Source of the DNA: Escherichia coli
GTDB lineage: Bacteria; Pseudomonadota; Gammaproteobacteria; Enterobacterales; Enterobacteriaceae
Length of the DNA stretch: 64,000 bases
Direction: 5' to 3' (one strand)
Assembly (NCBI RefSeq): GCF_024700885.2
Contig: NZ_CP117016.1
Made by a program: the position numbers. This document shows positions 39,301 through 42,300 of this stretch, piece by piece (position 1 is the first letter of the stretch; each line of letters begins with the position of its first letter).

Positions 39301-42300
39301 GGTGTACTGGAACAGACGGCCCGGGCTTACATTGAAATCACATGGTGCCATTGAACGTCATCTTGGGTGTAGTGACTTTTAACGTCAGGTGATGCATAAG
39401 GGTCTTTCGCGGAGAGGCCCTGTTTACACAATTAAATAAGTCGAGTCCTCTAGGCTGGGCTGTGTGCACGCCCCCCCGTTCAGCCCGACCGCTGCGCCTT
39501 ATCCGGTAACTATCGTCTTGAGTCCAACCCGGTAAGACACGACTTAACGCCACTGGCAGCAGCCATTGGTAACTGGATAGTGGATTTAGATACGCAGAAC
39601 TCTTGAAGTTGAAGCCTTATAGCGGCTACACTGGAAGGACAGCATTTGGTATCTGTGCTCCATCAAGCCAGTTACCACAGTCGATTAGAAGAGGTCGAAG
39701 ACTTCTAATCGGACGGAAAAAGCCGCCGCAAGGCGGCTTTTTCCGTTTACAAGCCGAAGATTACGCGCAGCTTAAAAGGATCTCAAGAAGATCATTTTAA
39801 TTTTGCTGATCGTTGCGCCCTACCAGTGACCATACGGATAGGGCTTTTCCTTGATAAAATCGCGGATAAATGGATCGTAACCGTTAGCCTTGATGTAACT
39901 GAAATCAATCTTGTTGGGAACATTTTTGCATATCAGCATATCATCTCCCGTCAGGGTGAACTGTCGGGCAGGATTCTGGAGTACAACAGGATTACGATTG
40001 TCTTTTAACCATACCCTGACTTTACCACCGGGGGGCAGGCCAATAATCATTTTGTTTCGGTAATATATTTTTCCCGGACGATAAGTATCAGGATAGGCAG
40101 TCAGCATCTGCTGCCACGTATCCCGGCTGAACCAGATCTCCGTCTCATACGCCTTTTTATCGATAACTGAGTCCCAGCATACCGTCATCCTGACAGGCAG
40201 CGCCTTGCCAATATTAAAACTGGCTAAAAAACCGCCTACGTGCTGGCTCCATTTTCCCACACTGCTCTGACTGGGTTCAGTCGGATCCAGTCGCCGGAAA
40301 AAGCTCTCCCGGATATCCCCGTCCTCCAGATACACCATTGTCACCAGTGCCGGCAGATTTTTCGGGTAAAAAAATTGAATTCCCAGTGGTCGTAAGGCAA
40401 CTTCTGCCCCCATTGCTCCACGCCATCGCCCAGCAGCGTCCTCACACCAGCCCTACGGTCATGGCAGCCGACAGCCAGCATTACGCCCACTATCACGCCC
40501 ACCATCAGCGGTAATCGTCTCATTCCTGCCTCCTCAGAACAGTCCATCCAGCGCGCCTTGCGACGCCCCCGCCCGGTCCGCCATTGAGGTGTAGCCGAGC
40601 ACCGGCACAAAAAAGGCGCGAGCGCGCCATTGTGTCGTCACTAAGGAGTGTTCAGGAGGTCAAGCCCGGCGCCTGATTTTGCAGACGCGAGGAAAAGAGA
40701 CCGCGAAGCCCGGTGAACGACAAGGGGATGTAATGCGAGCCATCTTCCAGATTAGCAACCCGGTTCATATATCAGTAAAATACGGTCGCGCTCCCCTCCC
40801 CCTCTTTGCACAAAGGTATGAAAATGTATTCAGATCACCAACGTAGTTATCTGGCCCACTGGTTGACGTTAAGCGGCAAAGCCGAGGACTCGCTGACGCA
40901 AACTATTGCCAGCGCACGGGTTGATATGAATCCTCATCAGGTAGAGGCTGCGATGTTTGCGCTGGCATCTCCCCTGTCGAATGGCGTGATCCTGGCCGAT
41001 GAAGTGGGACTGGGGAAAACTATTGAGGCCAGCCTGATTTTGGCGCAAAAATGGGCTGAACGCCGCCGAAAACTGTTGCTGATTGCACCCGCAACGCTAC
41101 GCAAGCAGTGGAGCCAGGAGCTGGAAGAGAAATTTTCGCTGCCTTCACAAATTATTGAAGCGAAGATCTTCAATCAAATGGTTAAAGAGGGGAGCGATAA
41201 TCCCTTTGATATTGAAAATGCAACCGGGAAAGCGGCGATCTGCATTTGTTCATACGAATTCGCTGCCCGTAAAGAGCACGAGCTGGCACGAATCCCGTGG
41301 GATCTGGTCGTCATGGATGAGGCGCATAAACTGCGTAATATCTACAAGAACGATGGCGCTAAAACAGCCAAAAAACTCAGTGGCGCACTGTCCGGCAGAA
41401 AAAAAATACTGCTTTCCGCCACGCCGCTACAAAACAGTATTCTTGAGCTTTACGGCCTGATTTCCGTGATTGATCCTCATTTTTTCGGCGACCTTGCTTC
41501 GTTCAAGGCCCGTTATTCCCGACAGAATATTGACGATGCAGAACTGGCATTATTAAGGGTTCGTCTGAATAAAATCTGTAATCGAACGCTTCGTCGACAG
41601 GTTCAGCAGGAAGGCGGGATCAGTTTTACCCGACGCCATTCAATAACCGAAGACTTTCGTCCGACGGAAGACGAAGAAGTGCTCTATAAACAGGTTTCCT
41701 CTTATTTGCAGCGGGACGATCTACTGGCGATCAAAAGCGGCGCGCGTCACCTAGTAACGTTAGTCATTCGTAAAATTCTGGCCTCATCGTCTACAGCGAT
41801 CCAGGGAACGCTGGAAACGATGATCCACCGTCTTGAAAGTAAAATGCCGGTGCTGGATGCGCTGACGGATTATGAAAATTACGACGATTACAGCGATGAA
41901 GAAGGCATTGATGACGAAGATACCATCGATCCTCAGGCGCTACAGGCCGAAATTGACCAGTTAAAAAATTATAAGACTTTAGCGGCATCGATTACCAAAA
42001 ACGCCAAGGCCGAAGCACTGTTACGCGTTCTCGATCGGGCCTTTACCTTTACGGCTGAACTGGGCGGATTACGTAAGGCGGTCATTTTTACCGAGTCCGT
42101 ACGCACCCAGACCTGGCTGGCGCAACTGTTGTCAGAAAGTGGCTACGAGGGAGAAGTGGTTCTGCTCAATGGCAGCAATAGCGATGCGGTGTCGAAGAAG
42201 ATTTACAGCGACTGGCTGGAGAAACATCAGAACTCTGGCCGGGTTTCCGGTTCGAGCACGGCGGATATGAAGGCAGCGCTGGTTGAAAAATTCAGGGACG

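What the first reader, a model, noticed from the sequence alone, without database searches (positions are those of the whole stretch)
39820..40610. Lipoprotein gene next to the defense cluster appears frameshifted
A lipoprotein signal peptide with LAVGC lipobox (ORF 40341..40610) and a 197-codon ORF (39820..40413) overlap by 73 nt in different frames, with a C5 run near 40406-40410. This is either a pseudogene, a sequencing error in a homopolymer, or a programmed frameshift.
Basis: seen in the sequence. Interest (0 to 1): 0.3.

Follow-up and report, generated by a model that had tools for sequence, protein, structure and literature searches.

The report
Frameshifted orphan T6SS immunity lipoprotein gene
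The split "lipoprotein gene" is a leftover antidote gene against a bacterial toxin, stranded without that toxin gene and broken by loss of one T in a run of eight; this is ordinary gene decay.

Summary
On the minus strand, a 60-codon lipoprotein signal-peptide ORF (ATG 40523 to TGA 40341) overlaps a 197-codon DUF2931 ORF (39820-40413) in another frame.

The C5 run (40407-40411) is invariant in intact relatives. The break is at the A7 run 40368-40374, which is T7 on the coding strand. The window differs from an intact 234-aa allele, found in the same genomic context in two strains, by exactly one base (T8 to T7).

It is not a sequencing error. Among complete E. coli genomes, 60 carry T7 (55989, 042 and O104:H4 among them) and 5 carry T8.

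The restored protein is 50% identical to Tli1-EAEC, the characterised outer-membrane lipoprotein that neutralises the T6SS phospholipase Tle1. Its own tle1-like partner survives only on small ColE1-like plasmids. In the window only the last few tle1 codons remain.

Sibling copies carry other independent lesions: a stop at the lipobox Cys, and 5' and 3' truncations. The best reading is a decaying orphan immunity pseudogene.

A -1 slip on U UUU UUU would rebuild the exact wild-type protein, but nothing indicates this is programmed. Interest is low.

The parts
40341..40523 (-). Upstream reading frame (60 codons). It encodes the lipoprotein signal peptide (Met1 to Cys20), then 32 native residues, then 8 out-of-frame residues (TRKICRHW) and TGA at 40341-40343.
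   Evidence: PGAP annotates it as hypothetical protein WP_001387040.1.
40464..40466 (-). Lipobox cysteine codon (TGC, Cys20 of ...MLAVGC). It is mutated to TGA in strains CE0007a and CE0026a.
   Evidence: It aligns with the lipobox Cys of Tli1-EAEC.
40368..40374 (-). Frameshift site: a T7 tract on the coding strand (A7 on +). Intact alleles have T8. In the zero frame it reads AAU UUU UUU, a U UUU UUU slippery heptamer.
   Evidence: Alignment A1, base-by-base comparison and coordinates.
39820..40368 (-). Remainder of the DUF2931 (Tli1-like) coding sequence in the -1 frame, from Tyr53 to the TAG at 39820-39822.
   Evidence: Pfam DUF2931 E 4.5e-29. A simulated -1 slip reproduces the intact 234-aa protein.
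40407..40411 (.). It is not the lesion.
   Evidence: Invariant in all five aligned alleles, including the intact ones. Coordinates.
40529..40535 (-). Shine-Dalgarno sequence GAGGAGG, five nt upstream of ATG 40523. It overlaps the stop codon of the tle1 remnant.
   Evidence: Conserved with the plasmid tle1-tli junction.
40534..40580 (-). Remnant of the 3' end of the cognate tle1-like effector gene. The last codons, ...ALDGLF*, are conserved, and similarity fades upstream of them.
   Evidence: Alignment A2. C-terminal peptide comparison. Homology with the plasmids ends at 40554.
39448..40554 (.). Segment derived from a small ColE1-like plasmid: part of the origin region with RNAI, the tli1-like gene and the tle1 3' end. 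It is 95.8% identical to E. albertii pEA5_2 and 89.1% to E. coli pS19_141-f.
   Evidence: RNAI RF00106 at 39641-39746 (+), 59.9 bits against a gathering score of 47.

Best explanation
This is a decaying orphan copy of a Tli1-family T6SS immunity gene.

In its native state, on small ColE1-like plasmids, the gene lies 10 nt downstream of a tle1-like phospholipase effector gene. It encodes a 234-aa prelipoprotein. By homology with Tli1-EAEC, that protein would be anchored to the outer membrane facing the periplasm, where it binds and inhibits the incoming Tle1-type phospholipase.

A 1.1-kb fragment of such a plasmid became fixed in the tRNA-Phe-associated genomic island. It carries part of the origin with RNAI, the immunity gene and only the last codons of tle1. 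It sits next to a P4-like CI/C4-type RNA and a defence cluster.

The orphan gene then lost one T from a T8 tract (codons 50-53, N-F-F-Y). This uncoupled the signal peptide and lipobox from the DUF2931 domain. The predicted products are a 60-aa prelipoprotein stub and, at best, a cytoplasmic and therefore useless domain.

Shown: the one-base lesion, its ancestry, its population frequency, the orphan context and the other lesions in sibling copies. Inferred: the loss of immunity function, and a sub-1% leak of full-length protein by -1 ribosomal or transcriptional slippage on the U7 run.
For: - One-base difference from the intact allele in the same context (CFSAN004176, A24).
- T8 is ancestral. 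The plasmid alleles at 98.4% and 87.5% identity are T8 and intact, and dN/dS among the intact alleles is 0.10-0.14.
- Census of complete E. coli genomes: 60 T7, 5 T8, no other tract length.
- Family identity: Pfam DUF2931 for the window ORF, the intact allele and Tli1-EAEC. The intact allele is 50% identical to Tli1-EAEC over its full length, E 2e-73.
- The neighbouring plasmid effector is 56% identical to Tle1-EAEC and matches Pfam T6SS_Tle1-like_cat.
- Published function of Tli1 as an outer-membrane lipoprotein that binds and inhibits Tle1: PMC9860674 and PMC6730261. DUF2931 as the Tli1 domain: bioRxiv 10.1101/2024.03.05.583533.
- Orphan status: only a tle1 3' remnant is present. The tle1-like gene is found in 8 of 5426 genomes, and none of the T7 genomes listed is among them.
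- Independent lesions in sibling copies: a Cys20 stop; a 3' truncation at nt 578 in both a T8 and a T7 background; a 12-nt signal-peptide deletion; 5' truncations.
Against: - No expression data are available, so loss of function is inferred.
- The T7 tract is a perfect U UUU UUU slippery heptamer in the right register. A -1 slip, or one extra U inserted in the mRNA, would regenerate exactly the wild-type protein, so a low level of functional product cannot be excluded.
- The T7 allele has stayed otherwise unmutated across many lineages. This could mean recent spread, as assumed here, or residual selection.
- PGAP does not flag the locus as a pseudogene.
Confidence: 0.85

Rival explanations
1. 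Leaky or programmed -1 frameshift. Ribosomes slip on U UUU UUU, or RNA polymerase adds a U on the A7 template, so the T7 allele still makes the full-length immunity lipoprotein at a biologically useful level.
For: - The heptamer is in the correct zero-frame register, and the slip product equals the intact protein.
- U_UU.U_UU.U gave more than 0.1% -1 frameshifting in E. coli without stimulators (PMC4066793).
- Compensatory low-level frameshifting at indels is a known phenomenon (PMC5009743).
Against: - The two-frame arrangement is not conserved. All intact homologues are single ORFs that differ only in tract length.
- The 118 nt downstream fold no better than shuffles (z = -1.14; 25 of 200 shuffles do as well).
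- Upstream there is only a weak GGGA, 6 nt from the heptamer. From general knowledge, the spacing that stimulates -1 frameshifting in dnaX is 10-14 nt.
- Efficiency without stimulators is a fraction of a percent.
- Productive transcriptional slippage is described for runs of 9 A or T (PMC5009743), and this run is 7.
- Sibling alleles carry unrelated knock-outs.
Confidence: 0.06
2. Phase variation. The T7/T8 tract is a contingency switch that turns the orphan immunity gene off and on by slipped-strand mispairing.
For: - Both tract lengths occur among near-identical alleles.
- The tract changed at least twice. TW10573 (T8) and the AR_0149 group (T7) share the same 3' truncation junction.
- UUUUUUU runs are under-represented in E. 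coli genes, possibly because of high indel rates (PMC4066793).
Against: - Only two states are seen, and they follow lineage. All O104:H4, 55989-like and 042-like genomes are T7, with no within-lineage switching.
- The second tract change happened in an already truncated, dead copy. That points to a neutral mutational hotspot rather than a selected switch.
- From general knowledge, a tract of 7-8 nt is short for high-frequency switching in mismatch-repair-proficient E. coli.
Confidence: 0.05
3. Sequencing or assembly error in a homopolymer: the gene is really intact.
For: The lesion lies in a homopolymer, which is a classic error site.
Against: The same T7 sequence appears in 60 complete genomes from many laboratories, including 55989, 042 and numerous O104:H4 assemblies. 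Five other genomes consistently show T8. The 197-aa and 60-aa products are each recorded on at least 1000 contigs.
Confidence: 0.01
4. Two genuine separate genes, as annotated by PGAP: a small 60-aa lipoprotein and a signal-less DUF2931 protein with a new function.
For: PGAP calls both as CDSs rather than as a pseudogene. The upstream ORF keeps a strong RBS and an intact lipobox.
Against: - The split arises from a single-base deletion relative to a 234-aa protein that has been under purifying selection.
- PGAP itself is inconsistent about the start of the downstream CDS, giving 172 or 197 aa.
- The last 8 residues of the stub are out-of-frame sequence.
- Tle1 acts in the periplasm and Tli1 works there, so a cytoplasmic DUF2931 domain has no known target.
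Confidence: 0.03

Closest known systems
Tli1-EAEC (EC042_RS24225, WP_000196359.1), the immunity lipoprotein to the T6SS-1 phospholipase Tle1 of enteroaggregative E. coli
   Same: Both have the DUF2931 domain. Both have an N-terminal lipoprotein signal peptide, and the lipobox cysteines align. Identity is 50% over the full length. The native gene order is tle1 then tli1.
   Different: The window copy belongs to a distinct subfamily with no DNA-level match to tli1-EAEC. Its cognate effector is a plasmid-borne Tle1-like protein only 56% identical to Tle1-EAEC. Here it has no effector gene and no T6SS cluster beside it, and it is frameshifted.
Degenerate second immunity copies next to tle1: tli1b of EAEC (described as truncated by mutation) and PA3292 of P. 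aeruginosa (frameshifted at an A-rich run), as described in PMC13133936
   Same: These are also immunity paralogues inactivated by point or indel mutations, in one case at a homopolymer-like run.
   Different: Those copies sit inside the effector locus. This one is an orphan transplanted with a plasmid fragment into a tRNA-Phe island.
Orphan T6SS immunity genes and acquired interbacterial defence islets (e.g. bioRxiv 10.1101/471110; PMC7400221)
   Same: An immunity gene without its effector, carried on a mobile island.
   Different: It is a single gene rather than an array, and in most genomes it is inactivated rather than maintained.
Slippery-heptamer -1 frameshift sites of IS elements, such as IS1 insA/insB and the IS3 family. 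Both are annotated with programmed frameshifts in this same window's genome.
   Same: A homopolymeric heptamer at an ORF overlap. U_UU.U_UU.C and U_UU.U_UU.U are shift-prone motifs.
   Different: The two-frame layout is not conserved among homologues, and no stimulator was found.

Membership tests
Tli1 / DUF2931 T6SS immunity lipoproteins | DUF2931 (PF11153) domain | tested here: met
   Window ORF E 4.5e-29. Intact allele E 1.6e-31 and Tli1-EAEC E 1.1e-27.
Tli1 / DUF2931 T6SS immunity lipoproteins | N-terminal lipoprotein signal peptide with a lipobox Cys on the same polypeptide as the domain | tested here: not met
   The signal peptide and lipobox are present (MRR...MLAVGC), but the T7 frameshift separates them from the domain. 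The feature is met in the T8 allele.
Tli1 / DUF2931 T6SS immunity lipoproteins | Full-length sequence similarity to an experimentally characterised member | tested here: met
   The restored protein against Tli1-EAEC: 50% identity over 221 aa, E 2e-73.
Tli1 / DUF2931 T6SS immunity lipoproteins | Encoded immediately downstream of a tle1 (DUF2235) effector gene | tested here: not met
   Only the last codons of tle1 remain, at 40534-40580. The feature is met in the closest relatives on pS19_141-f, pEA5_2 and DETEC-P1056.
Tli1 / DUF2931 T6SS immunity lipoproteins | Binds and inhibits the cognate Tle1 phospholipase | not testable with these tools
   Known for Tli1-EAEC from the literature.
Programmed -1 ribosomal frameshift sites | Slippery heptamer X XXY YYZ in the zero-frame register at the ORF overlap | tested here: met
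   AAU UUU UUU ACC gives U UUU UUU, and the slip product equals the intact protein.
Programmed -1 ribosomal frameshift sites | Two-frame organisation conserved among homologues | tested here: not met
   All intact homologues are single ORFs with T8. In Tli1-EAEC the aligned residues are F-L-F-I-Y where this gene has F-N-F-F-Y.
Programmed -1 ribosomal frameshift sites | Stimulatory element: a downstream structure or an upstream SD-like sequence at the right spacing | tested here: inconclusive
   The downstream 118 nt fold with z = -1.14, which is not significant. Upstream there is only a weak GGGA 6 nt away, from sequence inspection. Pseudoknots were not searched.
Phase-variable (contingency) loci | Homopolymer in the CDS with length polymorphism among close relatives | tested here: met
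   T7 in 60 genomes and T8 in 5, with at least two independent changes.
Phase-variable (contingency) loci | Frequent on/off switching within a lineage | tested here: not met
   All O104:H4, 55989-like and 042 genomes are T7, and tract state follows lineage. Population-level read data were not available.

The most novel reading that the evidence does not exclude
The T7 allele is not fully dead. A -1 ribosomal slip or a one-U transcriptional insertion on the U7 run regenerates the exact wild-type Tli1-like lipoprotein at a low level. Alternatively, rare T7 to T8 reversion acts as a slow switch. Either way, the widespread EAEC/O104:H4 island would keep a standby immunity against plasmid-borne Tle1-like toxins without paying the full cost of expression.
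Probability: 0.07. Interest if true: 0.4.

Novelty: new member of a known kind. Interest (0 to 1): 0.15.

Why it matters
The main value is in annotation.

- RefSeq lists this locus as two real genes in at least 60 complete E. coli genomes (and on over 1000 contigs in public assemblies), including the O104:H4 outbreak strain, 55989 and 042. It is one orphan tli1-like immunity gene broken by a single-base deletion in a T-tract.
- It gives a clean small example of how T6SS immunity genes get stranded: a piece of a small ColE1-like effector/immunity plasmid was captured in a tRNA-Phe island and the gene then decayed.
- It shows that T8 tracts are recurrent indel hotspots.
- It does not reveal a new mechanism.

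Tried and rejected
- NCBIfam gave no hit for the stub, the domain ORF, the intact allele or the plasmid Tle1-like protein.
- PDB sequence search of the intact protein gave no hit at E <= 0.01.
- PADLOC gave no defence-family hit for the lipoprotein, so it is not part of the adjacent defence system.
- 'Distant' blastn of the intact gene found no DNA-level match to tli1-EAEC. The relationship shows only at protein level.
- RNA folding downstream of the slippery run gave no significant structure.
- The promoter scan found no sigma-70-like promoter on the minus strand between the isrK-like terminator and ATG 40523.
- The C5 run was rejected as the lesion because it is invariant in intact alleles.
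- One fetch of an annotated region failed on the size limit, and one script ended with a file-path error after printing the needed results.
- I did not run structure prediction or the large protein or metagenome scans. The single-base comparison with intact alleles already settles the question.

Full report
**Observation.** On the minus strand, the ORF 40341..40610 (89 aa from TTG) and the ORF 39820..40413 (197 aa) overlap by 73 nt in different frames.
- The upstream ORF contains MRRLPLMVGVIVGVMLAVGC. This has a basic n-region, a hydrophobic core and a lipobox Cys at codon 20.
- Its credible start is ATG 40523, with GAGGAGG five nt upstream.
- The TTG at 40610 lies at the 3' end of the neighbouring isrK/C4-like RNA, just past its terminator stem.
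- The downstream ORF is a strong DUF2931 match (E 4.5e-29, profile positions 18-182 of 182).
- The C5 run is at 40407-40411.

**Where the frame breaks.** The region is 100% identical in dozens of complete E. coli genomes, including 55989, 042 and many O104:H4 isolates. A few genomes carry a single 705-nt ORF in the same context, next to the same SNF2 gene.
- The alignment shows the G5/C5 run is invariant. The only difference from the intact allele of CFSAN004176 and A24 is one T fewer in a T-tract: T8 becomes T7 at CDS nt 150-156, window 40374..40368.
- In the T7 allele the zero frame reads ...E F N F F T R K I C R H W stop.
- The intact allele reads ...E F N F F Y P K N L P A L V...

**Not an error.** A 91-nt probe across the tract found 65 complete genomes. 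Five match the T8 probe perfectly and 60 have exactly one missing base, and no other length occurs.

**What the gene is.**
- The restored 234-aa protein and the experimentally characterised Tli1-EAEC both match Pfam DUF2931.
- They are 50% identical end to end (E 2e-73), and the lipobox cysteines align.
- Tli1-EAEC is an outer-membrane lipoprotein. It binds the periplasm-acting T6SS phospholipase Tle1 at 1:1 stoichiometry with nanomolar affinity and inhibits it (PMC9860674 and PMC6730261). The DUF2931 domain is noted for Tli1 in bioRxiv 10.1101/2024.03.05.583533.
- The closest intact relatives sit 10 nt downstream of a 563-aa Tle1-like gene. They are found on the 6.7-kb Rop-encoding ColE1-like plasmid pS19_141-f (87.5% DNA identity) and the 5.35-kb E. 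albertii plasmid pEA5_2 (98.4%). They also occur on several larger plasmids and at one chromosomal insertion, in DETEC-P1056.
- That effector is 56% identical to Tle1-EAEC and matches Pfam T6SS_Tle1-like_cat.
- dN/dS among the intact immunity alleles is 0.10-0.14, so the single-ORF T8 state is the selected, functional one.

**Context in the window.**
- Homology to these plasmids spans window 39448-40554.
- This segment includes an RNAI gene (RF00106, 39641-39746, 59.9 bits) and only the last codons of tle1 (...ALDGLF stop).
- Upstream of that point the sequence switches to an isrK/C4-type RNA with its terminator (40609-40688, minus strand). After that comes the divergently transcribed defence cluster: a DrmD-like SNF2 gene, IetA/IetS and a type III RM.
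- The tle1-like gene occurs in only 8 of 5426 genomes, and none of the T7 genomes listed is among them.
- The gene is therefore an orphan immunity gene with no native promoter of its own visible.

**Decay.** Other copies in the same island context carry independent lesions:
- TGC to TGA at the lipobox Cys, in CE0007a and CE0026a.
- A 3' truncation at nt 578 with an identical junction in TW10573 (T8) and in the AR_0149 group. The AR_0149 group is T7 and also has a 12-nt deletion in the signal peptide.
- 5' truncations that remove the signal peptide, in UMNK88 and ETEC1749.

The shared truncation in both a T8 and a T7 background means the tract length changed at least twice. This fits the reported under-representation of UUUUUUU in E. 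coli genes, which Sharma et al. suggested may reflect transcriptional slippage or a high indel rate (PMC4066793). Of the 65 near-identical island copies that retain the tract, only the two with the intact 705-nt ORF were confirmed intact (CFSAN004176 and A24).

**Could it still work?** The T7 run is a U UUU UUU heptamer in the right register.
- A -1 slip, or one extra U in the mRNA, yields exactly the intact protein.
- Published measurements give more than 0.1% frameshifting for this motif without stimulators. Across motifs, the gain over a background of about 0.05% was 2- to 10-fold, so the level is a fraction of a percent (PMC4066793).
- Productive transcriptional slippage is described for runs of 9 A or T (PMC5009743), and this run is 7.
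- I found no significant downstream structure (z = -1.14).
- The two-frame layout is not conserved in any homologue.
- I therefore treat any rescue as an unselected leak, not a programmed event.

**Verdict.** The gene is a frameshifted orphan tli1-like immunity pseudogene, captured with a fragment of a small ColE1-like plasmid and hitch-hiking on a widespread tRNA-Phe island. It sits at pheV in 55989 and at pheU in 042. This is ordinary gene decay and is of low interest beyond correcting the annotation.

Noticed in passing
window 40609-40688 (-), with terminator 40628..40615 and a c4-a1b1-like hit at 40649-40701 (-): An isrK/C4-type small RNA (RF01394, 56.8 bits against a gathering score of 50) lies between the lipoprotein gene and the divergent SNF2 defence gene. 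Homologues at about 80% identity lie next to 'ash family protein' genes in about 970 E. coli genomes. It therefore looks like the CI-type immunity RNA of a P4-like satellite element whose left operon has been replaced by the plasmid fragment.
   Followed up: partly
window 39641-39746 (+); plasmid-derived segment 39448-40554: A ColE1-type RNAI gene (RF00106, 59.9 bits) and part of a plasmid origin are embedded in the chromosome just 3' of the lipoprotein gene. PGAP's 48-aa 'replication initiation protein' lies in this origin remnant.
   Followed up: partly
L007 (pS19_141-f, 6683 bp) and L013 (E. albertii pEA5_2, 5353 bp): Tiny Rop-type ColE1-like plasmids carry little besides a Tle1-like T6SS phospholipase gene and its Tli1-like immunity gene. 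This layout resembles a colicin plasmid, but the toxin would need a chromosomal T6SS for delivery. In pEA5_2 the tle1-like gene spans the record origin and is missing from the PLSDB gene table.
   Followed up: partly
window 40806-51587 (+): The adjacent defence cluster is a DrmD-like SNF2 helicase, IetA/IetS (AAA ATPase plus S8 subtilase) and a type III RM (Mod plus Res). In strain 042 the SNF2 and methyltransferase genes of the same cluster are each split, so that copy is decaying too.
   Followed up: partly
window about 11000-38970; IS1 at about 38250-38950: A Tn21-like multidrug and mercury resistance region lies upstream and ends at an IS1 just upstream of the plasmid-derived segment. It includes mer operons (one present twice), tet(A), a class 1 integron with dfrA5, sul1, and TnAs3. 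Only one complete genome (MLI114, Mali) matches window 30000-42000 end to end.
   Followed up: no
window 55637-59755 (+): The 1372-aa ORF corresponds to the Pic serine protease autotransporter. This places the window in the EAEC tRNA-Phe pathogenicity island.
   Followed up: no
L009 17307-18805 (E. coli 042 sci-1 cluster): RefSeq annotates two full-length 225-aa tli1 genes after tle1 in strain 042. A 2026 paper says the second EAEC copy (tli1b) carries a truncating mutation. This may be a strain difference (17-2 versus 042) or an inconsistency. I did not examine it.
   Followed up: no
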